Under the pieces are notes generated by a model. That model had not been told where the DNA came from. It saw only the letters and a list, made by a program, of their open reading frames with translations, and made no database searches. Shown in pieces: positions 10,360 to 55,124 of a DNA stretch of 64,000 bases. This DNA is from Promethearchaeati archaeon SRVP18_Atabeyarchaeia-1 (GTDB lineage: Archaea > Asgardarchaeota > Atabeyarchaeia > Atabeyarchaeales > Atabeyarchaeaceae), in contig CP147779.1 in the NCBI GenBank assembly GCA_037308085.1, forward strand, positions 928,001 to 992,000, read 5' to 3'. Every line of letters begins with the position of its first letter. Position 1 is the stretch's first letter. Both the position numbers and the translations under genes were made by a program.

Positions 10360-10447
10360 TTCGCTGATTCCTCCACTACTGATGAATAATCGTTACGCCT
10401 TATTCAGATTGAGCAGGCTCTTTTTAACTTCTTGTATCTGTTTCGTG

Positions 10448-10939
10448 TTATTTCTGCTGCTGTTCGGGTGATTTCCAGTCTTTGCGAAGAGGGTAAACTC
10501 CCTCGGGCCAATCGTCGGATAGTTCGAGCCGAGCGAGGTTCGGGTGTCCCTTGAAATCTATGCCAAACATGTCATGAACCTCTCTTTCGTACAGAGTAGA
10601 CCCTGGGATCAGATCCGTAATCGTCTCGATTCTGGGTTTGCTGCGTGGGACCTCAACCCTAAGATTCACTACGACGTTCTTCACGAAGAAGTGAAAGATA
10701 ACTTCGAAGTTCTCGCCAAGGTCCGCACCCGACATCGTTGTAAGATGGTATAAACCCCAATTGTCTTTCATGAACTGAACAGCCTTGCGGTGTGCCCCAG
10801 CTTTGACTTTGAAATAGATCCTACGAGCCCTCTGCACTTTGGATTCGACCAGATCATCACCAAGGGCCTTCTTCAGTTCCTCGACCATCCCATTTTCGAC
10901 GTCAAGCTTCTCGGACACGGTCTTCTTCTCTTCGGTCAT
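10448..10939 (-). CDS. NuoC-like subunit of the hydrogenase complex
   Basis: EREVHDMFGIDFKGHP...YPLRKD. Confidence 0.88.
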   Translation of the reverse strand: MTEEKKTVSEKLDVENGMVEELKKALGDDLVESKVQRARRIYFKVKAGAHRKAVQFMKDNWGLYHLTTMSGADLGENFEVIFHFFVKNVVVNLRVEVPRSKPRIETITDLIPGSTLYEREVHDMFGIDFKGHPNLARLELSDDWPEGVYPLRKDWKSPEQQQK

Positions 10940-26371: not shown

Positions 26372-28651
26372 ATGTTTACGCCAGCAAAGATGAACATTGC
26401 GAAGATAATTTGCACGAAGGACAACGAGAGAGAGGTTGTAAGAGCGCTTCATGAATCTGGGCTCGTGCAACTCATAGATGTTGAGAAGCGAGAGGGCTCG
26501 GCCGCTCGAAGCATCGAATACGAGAAGGACATCACGGCACTGCTTGCCCGAGTCGCCAGGATCAACGACTTTCTGAGAGTAAAGAAGACTGTAGCTCCCA
26601 AATTGAGGAAACCTGTCCGTGTCTCGGACAAGACGGTAGAGGAAGCAAAGAAGTACGCGGAAGAAATCTGCGAAGCGACTGAAAAGAAGATTGAGGATCT
26701 CAGGACGTCGGTTGCCGCTGTTCAACAGGGAAAAGACGAGCAAGTAGGGTTGCTCAAGGTTGCCCAAGCGCTTGAACCGACTGGAATCGATCTATCTCAT
26801 ATGGGTGGTGGACGGGATCTCCACGCAGTAGCCGGGTTAGTGAAGTCTTTAAGGGTCAGAAGGCTGGAGTGGAACATTAAGGAAGCAACAGATGATTTGT
26901 ACATATTCAATGAGGTTCAGATCGGAAAAGCAGAGAGCGTAGTTATCATAGGCGTTTTGAAGGAGAAACGCGAAATCTTGGAGCGGGTTCTGACCTCCTT
27001 CGGATTCCAAGAGTTCCGCGTCCCACAGGGTGTCAAGGGAAGTGCAAAGCAGATCGTTTCTGCCACTCAGAAGAAGATTTCTGACTTTGAGAAGCAGGCT
27101 GCTGATTATGAAGACCAGATAGACAAGCTCGGGAAGAAGTACGGAGAAGAGTTGCTCGTTGCAGAAGAACTTCTCCTTGTTGAGAAAGACAAAATAGAAG
27201 CCCAACGTCTGTTCCGAGAAACCGCTAATACTATCGAGATCTGGGGCTGGGTTCCACAGAAATCCAAAGGTAAACTCGAACAGATAATCGGCAAGGCAAC
27301 CGGCAATACTGCCATCTTGAGTTTCACCGACCCTCAATTTCCTCCTGAAGAGTATCCTTCTTTGATGAAAGTTCCCAAAGCTGCCTCCTCATATGAGCAA
27401 CTCGTGAAAGCTTATGGAAACCCAACCTATCATGAAATAAACCCAACGGACTTCTTCCTCCTGACATTCCCAATAATATTCGGTATCATGTTCGCGGATA
27501 TTGGTCACGGAACCGTTCTGCTCTTTGCAGGACTCATAGGGTACATCTTGCAGAAGGCAAGGTACCGTGCAGGTGAGGCGATGAATTACCTCCTCAAAGG
27601 ATGTTATATGCTGATAGCATGTGGCTTCGCGTCAATCATATTTGGGCTACTGTTCGGATCAGTCTGGGGATATCATAACCCTGCATATTGGTTCACCCCA
27701 GAAAACTTGGTGGGGCAGACATACCTAATAGAACTCTCAGTGTGGATCGGGGTATTCCAAATATCATTTGGATTGATCCTGAACCTGATTAACAGAATCA
27801 TGGAGCGGAAATTCACCGAAGCAGTCTTTGTGCCATTGATGCTGCTGATCACGTATTGGTCCGCCGCGCTTCTGATATTCGGCGTTGGCACGCACGTCAC
27901 AAACGGAATATACTTCATGAATTGGTTCCTGCCCGGACCATCTCTTGTATTAAAACTGCTATGGGTAAGAGTTCCACTGCCATTCCTGTCTCCCGTCACG
28001 GTCTTCCTTCTTGGCATGATCGCCCCTGTCGTTCTCTTTATCACATATGAGATAAGGCACCGCGGCGTGGAGGGATTCGGCGAAACTCTCGATTACCTGA
28101 TATCTCTTCTGAGCAACTCTGTGTCTTTTGCTCGGATATTTGCGCTGAATATAATTCACACGGTCATAAGTGTACTGTGCTTGGAGTTGGGTGTATTCCT
28201 AGTGCCTCAAGGCCAGTCTGGTGTACTCTCGACGGAGATAGGATTCAGTATCTTCCTAATGTTTGCGATAGGGTTAGTCGCAAGGCTGCGAATCGGATTT
28301 CGCAAAGGTTTGCTGGTCGGATTGGCCATAGGGATACCGGTGGCGGTTGCTCTGATCCAGATAGGGATAGTGCAGCCGATCTTCACTCTTCCAAACTGGT
28401 TCCCGAGCGCTTCAAGTGTGAGTAGTGTTCAACTCCCAGATGCTCCCCCCGTGCTAAACCTCACTTTTATTGGGGTTCTGATTGGTAGCGTCGTTATAGT
28501 TCCGTTTGAGGGGCTACTCTCGTTCCTTCAAACCCTGCGGCTCCACTGGGTTGAGTTCTTTTCGAAATTCTATATGGGTTCTGGTGAAGAGTTCAAGCCA
28601 TTCAAAGTCGAGCGGCATTTCACGCAGGTGGCGGTGAAGGCTGAGAAATAG
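26372..28651 (+). CDS. atpI: A/V-type ATP synthase subunit I (a)
   Basis: MF.PAKM, YG.P.Y.EINPT, FGIMFADIGHG, SFARIFAL..H, LRLHWVEFFSKFY. Confidence 0.92.
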   Translation: MFTPAKMNIAKIICTKDNEREVVRALHESGLVQLIDVEKREGSAARSIEYEKDITALLARVARINDFLRVKKTVAPKLRKPVRVSDKTVEEAKKYAEEICEATEKKIEDLRTSVAAVQQGKDEQVGLLKVAQALEPTGIDLSHMGGGRDLHAVAGLVKSLRVRRLEWNIKEATDDLYIFNEVQIGKAESVVIIGVLKEKREILERVLTSFGFQEFRVPQGVKGSAKQIVSATQKKISDFEKQAADYEDQIDKLGKKYGEELLVAEELLLVEKDKIEAQRLFRETANTIEIWGWVPQKSKGKLEQIIGKATGNTAILSFTDPQFPPEEYPSLMKVPKAASSYEQLVKAYGNPTYHEINPTDFFLLTFPIIFGIMFADIGHGTVLLFAGLIGYILQKARYRAGEAMNYLLKGCYMLIACGFASIIFGLLFGSVWGYHNPAYWFTPENLVGQTYLIELSVWIGVFQISFGLILNLINRIMERKFTEAVFVPLMLLITYWSAALLIFGVGTHVTNGIYFMNWFLPGPSLVLKLLWVRVPLPFLSPVTVFLLGMIAPVVLFITYEIRHRGVEGFGETLDYLISLLSNSVSFARIFALNIIHTVISVLCLELGVFLVPQGQSGVLSTEIGFSIFLMFAIGLVARLRIGFRKGLLVGLAIGIPVAVALIQIGIVQPIFTLPNWFPSASSVSSVQLPDAPPVLNLTFIGVLIGSVVIVPFEGLLSFLQTLRLHWVEFFSKFYMGSGEEFKPFKVERHFTQVAVKAEK

Positions 28652-49183: not shown

Positions 49184-50470
49184 TCAGAGTCCTTGAAGTG
49201 GTGAGGACAAACCCCATTCCTTCAGGTTCTCGCTGACCTTCTCATCGATCTTCGACTTGGTGAGTCTTCTGATCTGGTTCGGCTTGTATGAGCCGATGTC
49301 TGTTAGGATTTCGGTGACGTTTTCCGGTGGCGTTACATCAAAGGCTGGGTTGTAAACCAAGACTCTGCCACTTTCCGGCTTACTGCCCTTCACCAACTTG
49401 TCGCTTGGCGGCCATTCGTCCAGTGCTTGCGCGGAGATAATCCCTCGCCGTTTCTTGTCCTCCGCCTCAAGCCTATACGGGTAAGTGAATTCCTCTATGT
49501 TCCTTACTTCAATTGGTATGTCCCTACCGCGCTCAGTGCCCAGGTCTATCGTGGAGTAGGACGTGCAGTAGTAGAAGGGAAGTCCATACTCGTGAAACAC
49601 TGATGCCGCATCCGCCGACCCGATCTTGTTCGCGACAGATCCATCCTTTGCGACTCTGTCCACTCCAAGCATAGCTTTATTCAATCCGTATTTCCGAATT
49701 GCGGCGTTTGTCATGCCATCAGTTATGGCAATAACTGGCAGACCGCAGCGCAGCGCCTCCCAGATGGTAATCTTGAAACCCTGAGATCTGGGTCTGGTCT
49801 CGTGGGAGACCAGCACGACGTCCACGCCATCAGCGTAGGCCTCTTCAATCCCGCATGTGGCATGAGCCCCATAGGAACCCGCTAGGCCGGCATTGCAGTG
49901 GTGGAGGATTACGTCGCCATTTTTCAGGTGCTTCCTAATTTCCTTCCTGGTGAAAGCGTTAAGCGCCAAGTCGGATGCCAGTATGTAGTCTGCCACGTCC
50001 CTTACGGCTTCAACGATACCATCGACTGTCATACCTTTGCTGAAAGCCCTCTCTGCCGCTTCCATCGCCAGGTTCACTGCCCAGGGTAATGGCTGCGCAG
50101 TCGGTCTTGCGTTTGCTATGAACTCTCCCTTGGGCTTGAGTTCCTCCATGAAACTCTGGGGAACTTTGGTTGCCTTCGCCGTGCTTACTGCAGCAAGGAG
50201 CATACAGTATCCACCCGCGACGCCGATGGCTTGGCTACCTCGAATTATCAGCTCCTTGATTCCAGGATCAGCTCCTTGTTTCCAGTCTTTTGTAGCCCAC
50301 GTTGTCACCTCGAAGGGGAGTTTTGTCTGATCTAGGTAAATGAGTTCCTCTTTCTCATGGTTATAGAATATCGTCAATGGTATGTGCGTCTTTTCATGAA
50401 CGTGGATCCCAACCGCTCCGTCATACTCCAAGCCGATCTTCCGAATCACGCCGTCAACGTCAATGGGCAA
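49184..50470 (-). CDS. mtnA: Methylthioribose-1-phosphate isomerase (eIF2B-like family), divergent
   Basis: LDQTKLP, RG..AIG, ARPT, HCNAG, ETRP, G.DR, NKIG, NPAFDVTP; TTG after GGAGG. Confidence 0.8.
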   Translation of the reverse strand: MPIDVDGVIRKIGLEYDGAVGIHVHEKTHIPLTIFYNHEKEELIYLDQTKLPFEVTTWATKDWKQGADPGIKELIIRGSQAIGVAGGYCMLLAAVSTAKATKVPQSFMEELKPKGEFIANARPTAQPLPWAVNLAMEAAERAFSKGMTVDGIVEAVRDVADYILASDLALNAFTRKEIRKHLKNGDVILHHCNAGLAGSYGAHATCGIEEAYADGVDVVLVSHETRPRSQGFKITIWEALRCGLPVIAITDGMTNAAIRKYGLNKAMLGVDRVAKDGSVANKIGSADAASVFHEYGLPFYYCTSYSTIDLGTERGRDIPIEVRNIEEFTYPYRLEAEDKKRRGIISAQALDEWPPSDKLVKGSKPESGRVLVYNPAFDVTPPENVTEILTDIGSYKPNQIRRLTKSKIDEKVSENLKEWGLSSPLQGL

Positions 50471-50670
50471 GTAGCTTATTCCTCCTTCATGAGTAAACCG
50501 AGCTGTACCGTGGGCAAACAAAACTAGTTCTCAGCATGGGTGCCAGCCTTAAGTTGATACTTGCACATTTCCTTTAAACCTTACGATCCACGGAAAAGAG
50601 AAAGTACTAGCCAACTAAGAGTCCATCATGAGCCAGTTCAGACACGCTAGGATGGAAGTGGCTTCTGCTG

Positions 50671-52015: not shown

Positions 52016-52893
52016 CTACATCTGCGCCGTCTTCAGAGCGTCCTTGCATTCACAGGCTCTATCCTTCGGAATTCTTGGTATCACGCTGAAAAGCAGCTTA
52101 TTCACATTCTCAATGTTCTGCTTCATGGATCTGACAACCTGCTCGGCTGTAACGGGTTTCAGACCATAAACATCAGTGTCGGTGGGCATCGCTATGTTTG
52201 CAAAACATATTTCTGCTTCTCTAGCAAGAGCGCACTCAGGGTAGGCCGTCAATGCGGGGCGGGCAGGCCCTACTTGCTTCACGCCTTTCCGACGACATCC
52301 CATCCCTGCCTCTTATAGAACAGCGACTCCGCCCTCGTGGAGAACCTTGGTCCCTCGATGCAAACATACTCGAATGAGTCATGATCCTTGGAGTTCTCCT
52401 TGGAGTGAATTTTCATGCCGAGTTTCACAGCCGTGTCCACAACGATCTTCCTCAGCTCCGGACAAAACGGCTCAGCAAAGGAAACATGCCCTACCAGCCC
52501 TCCATCGAAGAATGTTTGGTTCATTCGTGGCGCAGCCGTGAAACTTACTATCTGGTCACAGACAACGAATTCACCTGGTTTGATTCGCTCAGGCTGTAGG
52601 CTCCCAACTGCAGCCGGGCTTATTATTCTGGAGACTCCGAGAGCTTTCATAGCCCAGACGTTGGCCCTGAAGTTGATCTTGTGCGGCGGAATCCGATGAC
52701 CCCTTTGGTGGCGAACCAAGAACGCCACTTTCCTTTCTCCAACGTAACCTACTATGACGTTGTCGCTTGTCGCTCCGTAGGGTGTGTAGACTTTGAGTTC
52801 TTTTGCTTCCTTTATTATCTTTGGGTCGTAGTTGCCCGAACCTGCAAAAACCCCGATTTCTGCAGTTTCACCTGGATCTATTAAACCAATCAT
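52016..52893 (-). CDS. mtnP: 5'-methylthioadenosine phosphorylase, two exons (52893-52287 and 52251-52016; 280 aa spliced)
   Basis: GSG, TPYG, RH...H..PP, AVGSL, EGPRFST.AES, then VVG|MTAYPE..LARE and TD.D after removing 35 nt. Confidence 0.85.
52252..52286 (-). other. Putative 35-nt archaeal (BHB/BHL) mRNA intron in mtnP
   Basis: Contains an in-frame stop and shifts the frame; excision GGA A|TG ACG restores GMT; AAA bulge, CGG/CCG helix, GGCG/CGCC intron stem, about 13-bp exon-exon stem. Confidence 0.75.
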
Positions 52894-53131: not shown

Positions 53132-55124
53132 TTAGTTAGTGGTTGCCATCGTCCCCGCATCAAGTCGGTTTTTCTGCTCATCTGGTAGTGTATGGGTTAC
53201 GTCAATGCATCTCGGGAGCTTTACTAAGCCGCGATGGGGGCCAAGGTGATCCTTCGTCGCCGAAGGCTTGTCTTAGCCACTCTCGTTTCATCTCCTTTGA
53301 TCCCTGCAGTATGAATGTAGGTGTGTCTGGGTTCTGCTTAACGACTTCGCCAGTTATTTCCCCTGACCTTCGCAGTGTGTGTCCAATGATTTCAGTTGAT
53401 GTGCGCACATTCGCAGCTCTGCCATCATCATATTCTCTATTGAGTATGTTTACTCTGCCGAAAATGTTCGTTAATGATTCCACGATCCTGATTCTTTGTT
53501 CTGTATCATTGTTCACATAGGCGAATATTGGTCCTCTGCCTTGAGATTCGGAGAGTGAACCGTCTGAGAATCCTGCTGCTACCAGTCTCGCTCCGTCGAA
53601 GGTATCCAGTCTAAAGGGGAGTTTCGGGTTCTCAACCGCTCTTTGATGTCCTATTGCTTTGATGGAGCTGTTAAGCTCGTTGAGATTTCTGTCGAGGTAT
53701 GTCAGGATTGGAATTAGTTTATCAACCCTCATACTGTCCAGTCGATCATTTAGCTGCTCTCTCAGGTAATTGTTGCACAAGTGTGTTCCTCTCTCTTCTA
53801 ACTCTTGGACGAGTGCGGTTTTTCCCCCTGCCTTATCTATTGCAGCCATAAGTAATTCATGTTTGTACTCTTTGTCAAGAAATACTTCAACAGTTGGTGG
53901 TAGTGCGTACCATGGTGTTTCGTAGGGTGGGCTTATCCTTTCTTCTCTTGGTATGTGGAGGAATTCTTCTCCCTGACTTGTTTTGTATCTGTAGAGGTCT
54001 AAGTCTCCTATCCGCTCCTTCTCTATTGTTGTGATTTTGTAGTTCTGGTTTTCATCGGTTATTGTGAATCCGTCTCCTTCATTGAGCTTCAACGTAGTCT
54101 TGTCCCGTGGCTTTTCTCGTACGCTTGCTTTCTCCTTTGGCGGTTCTGGTGATAGGACTATGCTGTCAGTTTTCACCCTCAATTTATCGGGTTCTTCTTC
54201 TCCTCTTCTCGTCAGTAGTTCGGCTGTGATGCTCTTGCCGAGGCCTATTGCTCCCTCTTCAATTCTTCCCGTTGCGAGTCTTTCTCCTCTATCTGTCTGG
54301 ATAACCATCTTCGCATGGTTGCCGTCTCTTGCGTTGAGCCCGAGTTCTCCAAGTATGCCGTGGACTTGTATCTTCATCTCGCCGTTGGTCGTGGTCGGTG
54401 TGATTAGGATGCATTGCTTCCAAGGTGGGTCCTCAGGTTTCCTCACATTTAGAACCTTAACATTTAGTTTGTCTCCTACCTTGATGTCCATGCATTCAAC
54501 GTATGCTTTCATGATGTTTGCTCTTGTTCCCTTTCCCAATGTTAGCCCAGCGATGGCTTGAACCCCCTGCTTCTCGAGCAGTGCCATCATTATGTCCCCG
54601 CGGTGGAACTCCACGTTTGCCATAGGGTTGAGCTTCAAGTAGTATGTCTGCCGGGCTTGGCTGTAATTCACTGTTGCGCCGGGGTTTAGGGTGCTCTTAG
54701 TAAACGCATCTAAACTGTAGACTGCTCCCTTCCACTTTACGGCTATGTCTTGGTCTTCTGGTGATTGAAGGTCTCTCAATGCTTCCCCTAAGTCCTTCCC
54801 AGCCATGCCTGATAGTCTTTGTAGATCCTCTAAGGTGATGTGTATTCTGTTGCTTTCCCAGCAGGTTACCTCGCTTTGAACGTATCTAAGCTCATCAGCA
54901 AGCTCGCGTCGGTTGAGGCCCATTTCTGTGCGCCACTGTCTAACTAATTCGCCTGCACCAACCACCCTAGCATCCTGAACTCTTATCTTGTTCAGTTCGG
55001 TTGCATCGGTTGCTTGTTCTCGCGCCGTTCTGTCGGGGTCATTGAGGCGCCTTATGTTAGTTCTTGAAGAAGCATCGCCTCCGCCTCTGGCAACGCTGCT
55101 CCTAAACTCGACATGGCGGGTCAT
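53132..55124 (-). pseudogene. XRE-HTH + repeats + LAGLIDADG-like protein, frameshifted near the 3' end
   Basis: HTH (LVRQWR...LNRRELA...WES), LAGLIDADG-like ARLVAAGFSDGS and WLRQAFGDEGS; a protein-like frame continues after the 5-G run at 53236-53240. Confidence 0.6.

What the first reader, a model, noticed from the sequence alone, without database searches (positions are those of the whole stretch)
52230..52310. Candidate BHB/BHL intron inside a protein-coding gene (MTA phosphorylase)
Seen: the minus strand reads ...GAT GTC GTC GGA A [AGGCGTGAAGCAAGTAGGGCCTGCCCGCCCCGCAT] TG ACG GCC TAC CCT GAG. Unspliced, the frame stops (GKA*) and the C-terminus lies in another frame. Removing 35 nt gives DVVGMTAYPE, restoring the conserved substrate-binding GMT and a 280-aa protein. 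The RNA can fold into an exon-exon stem (CAGGG/CCCTG, TGGG/CCTA, TGTC/GACG), a central CGG/CCG helix, a 3-nt AAA bulge and an intron stem GGCG/CGCC. Cutting after the second nt of each bulge (AA|A, AT|T) yields exactly the Met codon. Known: EndA cuts such motifs, and cbf5 is the main described archaeal mRNA-intron case. Inference: a spliced mRNA in a metabolic gene of a probable Asgard archaeon.
Basis: partly seen in the sequence, partly recalled or inferred. Interest (0 to 1): 0.9.

Follow-up and report, generated by a model that had tools for sequence, protein, structure and literature searches.

The report
Spliced intron inside an Asgard enzyme gene
A 35-base insert that breaks the only methylthioadenosine phosphorylase gene of this Asgard archaeon has the shape cut by the tRNA-splicing enzyme. 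It is one of at least ten such inserts in this genome's protein-coding genes, so these genes are probably spliced rather than dead.

Summary
On the minus strand, 35 nt (window 52286-52252) split the Met codon (A|TG) of the invariant G-M-T motif of the genome's only MTAP gene. Unspliced, the frame stops two codons later.

Removing the 35 nt gives a 280-aa protein that aligns without a gap to 26 uninterrupted homologues. Five further Atabeyarchaeaceae sequences carry an insert at the identical site. Its length varies (37, 37, 37, 38, 39 nt), its ends are conserved and its interior has diverged. Exon 2 is under strong purifying selection (dN/dS 0.01-0.07, dS up to saturation), so the gene is neither a pseudogene nor an assembly error.

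All six sequences fold into the same relaxed bulge-helix-bulge. Cuts after the second bulge base rebuild ATG exactly. The intron stem shows compensatory changes. The genome encodes a two-subunit EndA and RtcB.

A homology census found similar inserts in cbf5, pcm, glyA, ahcY, gatE, valS, a RIO kinase and a RuBisCO-like gene (two inserts). Other first readers of this scan had already flagged several of these in the same genome.

No RNA data could be reached, so splicing itself is inferred. I found no paper reporting mRNA introns in Asgard archaea. Confidence 0.87, interest 0.8.

The parts
52287..52893 (-). mtnP (MTA phosphorylase) exon 1: ATG at 52893 to the first base (A) of the split Met codon at 52287
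   Evidence: NCBIfam PRK08564 E 4e-70 and TIGR01694 profile positions 2-178. PDB 1v4n MTAP E 9e-64.
52252..52286 (-). 35-nt intervening sequence (candidate EndA-type intron), AGGCG...CGCAU on the RNA strand
   Evidence: It is unique in the genome and has no Rfam match. DNA contigs from two studies hold it with no differences.
52016..52251 (-). mtnP exon 2: TG of the Met codon, 77 codons, and the stop at 52018-52016
   Evidence: TIGR01694 profile positions 181-239. dN/dS 0.010-0.069.
52289..52292 (-). Central helix H, exon strand (UCGG). It pairs with 52254-52257 (CCGC): three Watson-Crick pairs plus a U.C mismatch in this genome, and four pairs (U.G) in two metagenome orthologues
52254..52257 (-). 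Central helix H', intron strand (CCGC)
52286..52288 (-). 5' splice-site bulge AAA. The inferred cut lies between 52287 and 52286 (AA|A)
   Evidence: The bulge is invariant in six orthologues and is a 3-nt bulge in all six MFE folds.
52251..52253 (-). 3' splice-site bulge AUU (ACU in G002). The inferred cut lies between 52252 and 52251 (AU|U). The site is relaxed: an extra unpaired G (52293) lies opposite, or a G.U pair shortens the bulge to 2 nt
52282..52285 (-). Inner intron helix h', 5' strand (GGCG). It pairs with 52258-52261 (CGCC)
   Evidence: the helix is 94% paired across six sequences, and 3 of 6 pairs changed on both sides (G-C / G-U / A-U).
52258..52261 (-). Inner intron helix h', 3' strand (CGCC)
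52294..52308 (-). Exon-1 strand of the outer exon-exon helices (UGUC 52297-52294, UGGG 52302-52299, CAGGG 52308-52304)
   Evidence: Helix 1 is 94% paired.
52237..52250 (-). Exon-2 strand of the outer exon-exon helices (GACG 52250-52247, CCUA 52245-52242, CCCUG 52241-52237)

Best explanation
The 35 nt are a tRNA-type (bulge-helix-bulge class) intron in the pre-mRNA of mtnP, the only MTA phosphorylase gene of this Atabeyarchaeaceae genome.

The inferred mechanism runs as follows. In the transcript, the last bases of exon 1 pair with the 3' end of the intron to form a 3-4 bp central helix. A 3-nt AAA bulge holds the 5' splice site. An intron hairpin stacks beneath it. A relaxed AUU bulge holds the 3' splice site. 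Exon-exon helices close the structure. The host's heteromeric (alpha-beta)2 splicing endonuclease EndA cuts after the second base of each bulge. RtcB joins the exons (GGA-A + UG-ACG), recreating the Met codon of the substrate-binding G-M-T motif. The result is an mRNA for a full-length 280-aa enzyme. The intron was gained in the stem of the family and has been kept since.

Shown: the sequence anatomy, its conservation and covariation, selection on both exons, and the presence of the enzymes. Inferred: cleavage, ligation and translation of the spliced form.
For: - Same-site insert in six orthologues with lengths 35, 39, 38, 37, 37 and 37 nt. All carry early in-frame stops. The ends are conserved (AGRC... 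...CCCGSAY) and the interiors have diverged.
- The spliced product aligns without a gap to 26 uninterrupted homologues. Met and Thr at the junction are invariant in 27 of 27. The profile coordinates are contiguous, 178 then 181.
- dN/dS is 0.015-0.06 in exon 1 and 0.010-0.069 in exon 2, with dS 0.2 to above 2. There is one MTAP copy per genome.
- All six orthologues fold independently into the same architecture. Across them, 92% of cells are paired against 34-54% when the partners are slid. Three of six inner-helix pairs changed on both sides. Two orthologues complete the 4-bp central helix.
- The geometry score at the homology-fixed junction has P = 1.3e-3. It was also the best BHB solution among all frame-restoring excisions within +/-40 nt.
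- The genome has an EndA catalytic subunit (Tyr/His/Lys present), a second subunit lacking the His, and an intact RtcB. Asgard EndAs are reported as (alpha-beta)2 with the L1 loop that goes with broad specificity (PMC5829648).
- In this lineage 92-95% of tRNA genes carry introns (PMC11291895).
- Nine more inserts of 22-49 nt in cbf5, pcm, glyA, ahcY, gatE, valS, a RIO kinase and an MtnW-like RLP (two) have contiguous profile coordinates across the break. Seven of the nine have BHB geometry at P < 0.03.
- DNA contigs from two separate studies hold the insert with no differences.
Against: - There is no RNA evidence. No spliced junction, circular intron or junction peptide was seen, because no RNA run holding the locus was available.
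- The motif is not a strict hBHBh'. In this genome the central helix has a U.C mismatch, and the 3' bulge faces an extra unpaired G.
- The region's fold energy is not lower than that of shuffles (z = 0.55).
- With six related sequences, the column-shuffle control for covariation is not significant.
- In five of six orthologues the last intron base plus UG spells TTG directly before ACG. A separately initiated C-terminal fragment starting M-T-A-Y is therefore conceivable.
Confidence: 0.87

Rival explanations
1. Split enzyme. The gene is translated as two polypeptides: an N fragment of about 204 aa that stops inside the insert, and a C fragment of 78 aa started at the TTG formed by the last insert base plus TG. 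The two fragments then assemble non-covalently.
For: TTG lies directly before ACG in five of six orthologues and would give M-T-A-Y.... Both halves are under purifying selection, which this model also predicts.
Against: - G002 has CTG at that place, yet it keeps its only MTAP copy with exon 2 under dN/dS 0.02-0.04.
- By eye, no Shine-Dalgarno-like motif precedes the TTG, and the TTG is buried in a conserved helix-bulge structure.
- The model does not explain the conserved BHB geometry or the compensatory changes in the insert.
- It cannot explain the sister cases where a codon is split mid-way without any start codon, such as cbf5 G|AU.
Confidence: 0.05
2. Pseudogene. A frameshifting insertion killed mtnP and the gene is decaying.
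For: The unspliced reading frame is broken, and gene callers would report a truncated 204-aa product.
Against: - Exon 2 has dN/dS 0.01-0.07 across synonymous divergence up to saturation.
- Six lineages keep the insert at one site with different lengths, and there are no other defects.
- It is the only MTAP copy.
- Essential genes (valS, gatE, cbf5) in the same genome carry the same kind of insert.
Confidence: 0.02
3. Recoding at the ribosome. Translational bypass (as in T4 gene 60) or programmed frameshifting carries the ribosome over the insert.
For: A stop codon lies 2-5 codons after the GGA codon, and a hairpin lies in the gap. This loosely resembles the gene 60 arrangement.
Against: - The insert lengths are 2, 0, 2, 1, 1 and 1 modulo 3, so no single frameshift fits.
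- No GGA landing codon precedes the resumption point.
- The invariant Met codon exists only if A and UG are joined in the RNA.
Confidence: 0.03
4. Assembly or sequencing artefact: the 35 nt are not in the organism's DNA.
For: None found.
Against: - Logan contigs of runs from two studies (X1, 2022; X2, 2024) span the site with 0 differences and 0 gaps. At most one of the two can be the source of this assembly.
- Five other assemblies carry an orthologous insert.
Confidence: 0.005

Closest known systems
Crenarchaeal cbf5 pre-mRNA intron (Watanabe et al. 2002; Yokobori et al. 2009, PMC2738675)
   Same: [quoted passage not shown] It is linked to hetero-oligomeric EndA, sits inside a conserved motif and has a lineage-specific distribution. 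This genome also carries a cbf5 intron splitting the TLDP Asp codon.
   Different: The host gene is a metabolic enzyme (MTAP) and the host is an Asgard archaeon. The intron is one of at least ten in one genome. PMC2738675 states that no archaeal pre-mRNA splicing had been confirmed for genes other than cbf5. Splicing is not shown experimentally here.
[quoted passage not shown]
   Same: The size range (tens of nt), the helix-bulge geometry with cuts after the second bulge base, many relaxed or non-canonical sites, unrelated intron sequences, and the presumed enzymes (EndA, RtcB) are all the same.
   Different: The substrate is an mRNA, so excision must be exact to the base to keep the frame. 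The exon helices are built from coding sequence. Neither paper mentions protein-coding genes with introns.
Eukaryotic unconventional cytoplasmic splicing of HAC1/XBP1 mRNA (IRE1 cut, tRNA-ligase/RtcB joining; mentioned in PMC4090602, otherwise my own knowledge)
   Same: A very short, frame-changing intron is removed from an mRNA by a protein endonuclease at stem-loop or bulge sites. The exons are joined by the tRNA ligase without a spliceosome.
   Different: The endonuclease there is IRE1, not EndA/TSEN. The event there is a regulated stress switch. No regulation is shown here.

Membership tests
Archaeal EndA-dependent BHB intron (strict hBHBh') | Two 3-nt bulges on opposite strands, separated by exactly 4 bp and flanked by helices | tested here: not met
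   In this genome the central helix is 3 bp plus a U.C mismatch, and an extra unpaired G faces the 3' bulge. Two orthologues (L174, L175) do have 4 bp.
Archaeal EndA-dependent intron, relaxed motif (HBh' / BHL class) | At least one canonical bulge next to the central helix and an inner helix, with the second cut site in a bulge or loop at the symmetric distance | tested here: met
   The 5' site has H (CGG), bulge AAA and inner helix GGCG/CGCC. The 3' site is AU|U directly after H'. This holds in six orthologues. Geometry P = 1.3e-3.
Archaeal EndA-dependent intron | Cuts after the second base of each bulge give exons that join into the functional sequence | tested here: met
   AA|A and AU|U give GGA-AUG-ACG, i.e. 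G-M-T. Met and Thr are invariant in 27 of 27 homologues.
Archaeal EndA-dependent intron | The host encodes a splicing endonuclease able to take relaxed motifs ((alpha-beta)2 or epsilon2 type) and an RtcB ligase | tested here: met
   There are two PF01974 genes. One has the Tyr/His/Lys catalytic residues and one lacks the His. RtcB scores E 2e-175. I did not inspect the L1 loop myself; the statement on Asgard EndA is from PMC5829648.
Archaeal EndA-dependent intron | Spliced RNA and excised (often circular) intron observed; cleavage by EndA in vitro | not testable with these tools
   No RNA run holding the locus was listed. The one metatranscriptome-labelled run laid nothing.
S-methyl-5'-thioadenosine phosphorylase (TIGR01694 / PRK08564) | Full-length match above the curated equivalog cut-off | tested here: inconclusive
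   The halves were scored separately: 235.9 + 81.5 bits against cut-off 382 (NF006334), and 201.5 + 46.8 against 274.85 (TIGR01694). Coverage of the profile is collinear. Solved MTAPs are the best PDB matches. The spliced protein itself could not be submitted.
Translational bypass (T4 gene 60 type) | Matching take-off and landing codons flanking the gap | tested here: not met
   The take-off codon would be GGA. No GGA precedes the resumption point, and the Met codon is split by the gap.
Self-splicing group I / group II intron | A ribozyme core of hundreds of nt that matches the Rfam models | tested here: not met
   The insert is 35-39 nt. No Rfam match at E <= 1.

The most novel reading that the evidence does not exclude
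Atabeyarchaeaceae routinely splice messenger RNAs with the tRNA-splicing machinery, and for cbf5 and gatE other Asgard families do too. This one 2.8-Mb genome has at least ten short introns in at least nine protein-coding genes: essential ones (valS, gatE, cbf5) and a cluster in methyl-cycle and methionine-salvage metabolism (mtnP, an MtnW-like RLP, ahcY, glyA, pcm). The introns differ in age. Those in cbf5 and gatE are shared between families. Those in mtnP and glyA are family-wide. The one in ahcY was found only in this genus. That points to continuing gain of mRNA introns in the closest prokaryotic relatives of eukaryotes.
Probability: 0.75. Interest if true: 0.9.

Novelty: new member of a known kind. 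Interest (0 to 1): 0.8.

Why it matters
- **Scope of archaeal mRNA splicing.** Protein-enzyme splicing of archaeal mRNAs has rested on one gene, cbf5, in Crenarchaeota. PMC2738675 says no other gene had been confirmed. Here the same kind of intron sits in a metabolic gene of an Asgard archaeon and belongs to a set of at least ten in one genome. Splicing of coding transcripts may therefore be ordinary in this lineage.
- **Annotation and metabolic reconstruction.** mtnP, ahcY, glyA, gatE, valS and others would be called truncated or pseudogenes. Methionine salvage, the methyl cycle and even translation factors would then be scored as missing.
- **A model for intron gain.** These introns have dated gains and losses in protein genes, in organisms used to reason about the origin of eukaryotic gene structure.
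- **Predictions that can be tested now.** The work gives exact junctions, a 35-nt circle and a mini-substrate for EndA.

Tried and rejected
- **RNA evidence.** No RNA holder was listed for the locus. The one run labelled metatranscriptomic (X7) laid nothing. This says nothing about expression.
- **Fold energy.** The 85-nt region is not more stable than its shuffles (z = 0.55). This test is uninformative for so small a motif.
- **Covariation shuffle control.** With six related sequences, 124-179 of 500 shuffles reach the observed values. Only the slid-partner control and the per-pair counts are informative.
- **De novo genome scan for BHB geometry plus ORF fusion**. It gave 125,529 raw hits. 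There was no excess of the true cut register over cuts shifted by 1-2 nt, because junctions between adjacent genes swamp the signal. I dropped it in favour of a homology census with the 1.42-Mb genome G003.
- **Census hits I rejected:**
  - The cluster of +/-1 'frameshifts' at 455-457 kb. It gave hits on both strands, and I read it as rRNA without confirming this.
  - nuoC/nuoD at window 10368-10475 are probably two adjacent genes that are fused in G003.
  - The in-frame 198-nt extra at window 28315-28445 lies inside an intact 759-aa ORF that I read as V-ATPase subunit I without a family search.
- **Mobile element family.** Rejected: the insert has no other copy in the genome.
- **Known RNA family on either strand.** None found.
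- **Literature**. I found no paper in the held library that reports introns in Asgard protein-coding genes. That is an absence from the library, not proof of novelty.

Full report
**1. The observation**

On the minus strand the window reads GAT GTC GTC GGA A, then 35 nt (52286..52252), then TG ACG GCC TAC CCT GAG. The upstream ORF (52893..52279, 204 aa) ends GKA-stop. The downstream 77 codons are in another frame.

Both parts are MTA phosphorylase. The N part scores PRK08564 E 4e-70 and covers TIGR01694 positions 2-178. The C part covers positions 181-239. The best solved relatives are archaeal MTAPs (1v4n, E 9e-64). The two missing profile positions are the G and M of the G-M-T motif.

**2. 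The organism**

The window is G000:C1:928001-992000 of a closed 2.81-Mb genome. Its nearest named relative at this locus is the Candidatus Atabeyarchaeum deiterrae Atabeyarchaeia-2 chromosome, followed by an Asgard MAG, LC30. The genome is therefore very probably the other complete Atabeyarchaeia genome of PMC11291895.

That paper reports that 92-95% of the tRNA genes carry introns, often at non-canonical places. It says nothing about introns in protein genes, about MTAP, or about frameshifts. A 2026 preprint puts the count at about 2.2 intervening sequences per tRNA gene in this family, again for tRNA only. In line with this, aragorn recognises only 22 tRNA genes here.

**3. The insert is real DNA and is inherited**

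Logan contigs from two different studies span the site with no difference and no gap (X1, freshwater sediment, 2022; X2, wetland, 2024). At most one of them can be the source of this assembly.

The two other species representatives of the family (G001, same genus; G002, other genus) and three metagenome contigs (L174, L175, L177) carry an insert at exactly the same site. The lengths are 39, 38, 37, 37 and 37 nt. The ends are conserved (A-G-R-C at the 5' end, C-C-C-G-S-A-Y at the 3' end). The interior is largely different.

All other Asgard genomes searched have uninterrupted frames of about 254-303 aa. The insert was therefore gained on the stem of Atabeyarchaeaceae.

**4. The gene is alive**

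Removing the insert gives a 280-aa protein in this genome. In the four other orthologues whose contig covers the whole gene, the coding part from the Met start has the same length; L177 is cut at its 5' end. The spliced protein aligns without a gap to 26 uninterrupted homologues, and Met and Thr at the junction are invariant in 27 of 27.

Pairwise dN/dS is 0.015-0.06 for exon 1 and 0.010-0.069 for exon 2. Synonymous divergence runs from 0.2 to saturation. Each genome has one MTAP copy. A dead gene would not keep exon 2 in a shifted frame under such constraint.

The insert lengths are 2, 0, 2, 1, 1 and 1 modulo 3, and each has an in-frame stop 2-5 codons after GGA. No single ribosomal frameshift can serve. 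A hop cannot make the Met codon, which is split as A|UG.

**5. The RNA structure**

For a canonical BHB I use the geometry that follows from tRNA introns at 37/38. Each strand reads 5'-helix(4)-bulge(3)-3', with the cut after the second bulge base.

In this gene:
- The exon bases UCGG (52292-52289) face the intron bases CCGC (52257-52254). This gives three Watson-Crick pairs and a U.C mismatch.
- The AAA bulge (52288-52286) carries the 5' cut, AA|A.
- GGCG/CGCC forms the inner helix, stacked directly on the central helix.
- AUU (52253-52251) carries the 3' cut, AU|U.
- The outer exon-exon helix UGUC/GACG is displaced by one unpaired G (52293), which may instead pair with the first exon-2 U. 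Two more exon-exon helices follow.

The 5' site is therefore canonical and the 3' site is relaxed.

All six orthologues adopt this architecture in unconstrained MFE folds. L174 and L175 complete the fourth central pair (U.G). On the six-sequence alignment, 92% of cells pair, against 34-54% with slid partners. The inner helix has three of six pairs changed on both sides (G-C, G-U, A-U series). One-sided exon changes keep pairing (C-G to U-G). The column-shuffle control is not significant with six relatives, so I rate the covariation as modest support.

With boundaries fixed by protein homology alone, the geometry score at this site is reached by 1.3e-3 of random positions. It was also the best BHB among all frame-restoring excisions nearby.

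**6. The enzymes**

The genome has two tRNA_int_endo genes. The 209-aa product keeps the catalytic Tyr, His and Lys. The 241-aa product lacks the His. This is an alpha plus beta arrangement. PMC5829648 reports that Asgard archaea carry the (alpha-beta)2 type with the L1 loop that goes with relaxed-motif cleavage. RtcB is intact.

**7. It is not alone**

I used the ORFs of a 1.42-Mb Asgard genome (G003) as probes. A tblastn census of G000, combined with leads from earlier notes of this scan, gave the following frame-breaking inserts:

| Gene | Insert (nt) | Junction in G000 (exon 1 end / exon 2 start) |
|---|---|---|
| pcm | 28 | 305603 / 305632 |
| cbf5 | 41 | 383797 / 383839 |
| valS | 31 | 443947 / 443979 |
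| ahcY | 34 | 488225 / 488260 |
| glyA | 38 | 654016 / 654055 |
| RIO kinase | 49 | 781928 / 781978 |
| mtnP | 35 | 980287 / 980251 |
| gatE | 41 | 2219067 / 2219109 |
| MtnW/RuBisCO-like gene | 22 | 2712782 / 2712759 |
| MtnW/RuBisCO-like gene | 28 | 2712487 / 2712458 |

For every family that NCBIfam names on both sides (all but the RIO kinase, whose exon 1 matched no kinase family), the profile coordinates run on across the break with at most the split codon missing. Examples are valS 88|89, gatE 86|88, glyA 50|52, ahcY 350|352, pcm 63|65 and cbf5 69|71.

Eight of the ten junctions show BHB geometry at P < 0.03, down to 3e-5 for gatE. Several are textbook hBHBh' in plain MFE folds.

Only about 1,320 probe ORFs had a match, so ten is a lower bound.

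Distribution differs by intron:
- cbf5 and gatE are also interrupted at the same places in other Asgard families (G037, G008).
- glyA and mtnP are interrupted in all three family genomes only.
- ahcY is interrupted in G000 and G001 but not in G002.

Because valS, gatE and cbf5 are indispensable, the cell must have a way to remove such inserts.

**8. Rivals**

The only rival with something in its favour is a two-piece enzyme. In five of six orthologues the last intron base plus UG spells TTG before ACG, which could start a fragment M-T-A-Y. Against it:
- G002 has CTG there, yet it keeps its only copy under strong constraint.
- By eye, no ribosome-binding motif precedes the site.
- The site lies inside the conserved structure.
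- The model explains neither the structure, nor the covariation, nor the sister introns that split codons with no possible start.

Pseudogene, artefact, frameshifting, bypass, self-splicing intron and mobile repeat are each contradicted.

**9. Comparison with what is known, and novelty**

The mechanism proposed is that of the crenarchaeal cbf5 intron and of tRNA introns, so this is a new member of a known kind.

What is new:
- the host gene, a metabolic enzyme;
- the host lineage, Asgard;
- the number of such introns in one genome.

PMC2738675 states that no archaeal pre-mRNA splicing had been confirmed outside cbf5. Five literature searches found no report of introns in Asgard protein genes.

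In function, the closest eukaryotic parallel is HAC1/XBP1 splicing. There too, a short frame-changing intron is removed by a protein nuclease and the exons are sealed by the tRNA ligase.

**10. What remains open**

- Direct RNA or protein evidence.
- Whether splicing is constitutive or regulated.
- How the introns arrive.
- Why five of the nine host genes serve SAM and methionine recycling. This may be chance.
- The valS insert, which has a conserved fold but does not obey the canonical cut rule.

Noticed in passing
G000 genome coordinates outside the window; loci L254-L261: Nine further short frame-breaking inserts lie in protein-coding genes: pcm 28 nt, cbf5 41, valS 31, ahcY 34, glyA 38, RIO kinase 49, gatE 41, and an MtnW/RuBisCO-like gene with 22 and 28 nt. 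NCBIfam profile coordinates are contiguous across each break. Most show BHB geometry.
   Followed up: yes
L256:548-578 (G000 443948-443978); L275; L276: The valS insert is 31 nt in all three family genomes. It has conserved ends and a conserved CGGA/UCCG helix with UAA and GAA bulges. The canonical cuts would remove 29 nt and create a UAA stop. The frame-restoring 5' cut lies 2 nt upstream, and a GGA direct repeat hides the exact boundaries. Unexplained.
   Followed up: partly
L265 (G037 cbf5), L268 (G008 gatE): cbf5 and gatE are interrupted at the same sites in other Asgard families. G037 cbf5 folds as a textbook BHB. mRNA introns are therefore not confined to Atabeyarchaeaceae.
   Followed up: partly
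L269, L270 (ahcY in G001, G002); G037:C1:1876395-1877580: The ahcY intron is present in G000 and G001 but absent from G002, which has a 420-aa open frame. This suggests a recent gain. In G037, ahcY lies in two pieces 262 nt apart at a different position.
   Followed up: no
window 49184-50521 (-): A 445-aa IF-2B-family protein (PF01008, E 6e-49) lies two genes downstream of mtnP on the same strand. I read it as an MtnA-type methylthioribose-1-phosphate isomerase, but no equivalog search was made. If so, this is a methionine-salvage neighbourhood. The 364-aa protein between the two genes has no Pfam match.
   Followed up: partly
window 10368-10475 (-): A NuoC-like ORF ends, and a NuoD-like reading frame begins 106 nt later in another frame. 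The two are fused in G003. They are probably separate adjacent genes here, but no clear start codon was checked.
   Followed up: partly
whole genome G000: aragorn finds only 22 tRNA genes, several with implausible introns. This agrees with published reports that the tRNA genes of this lineage are too interrupted for standard callers (PMC11291895).
   Followed up: no
G002:C1:82882-83910 and G037:C1:608963-610039: A second glyA-like paralogue contains one in-frame stop in each genome (TGA in G002, TAA in G037). Not examined.
   Followed up: no
window 53202-55124 (-): A 640-aa protein has only a weak HTH_3 match (E 1.3e-4) and is otherwise without a family.
   Followed up: no
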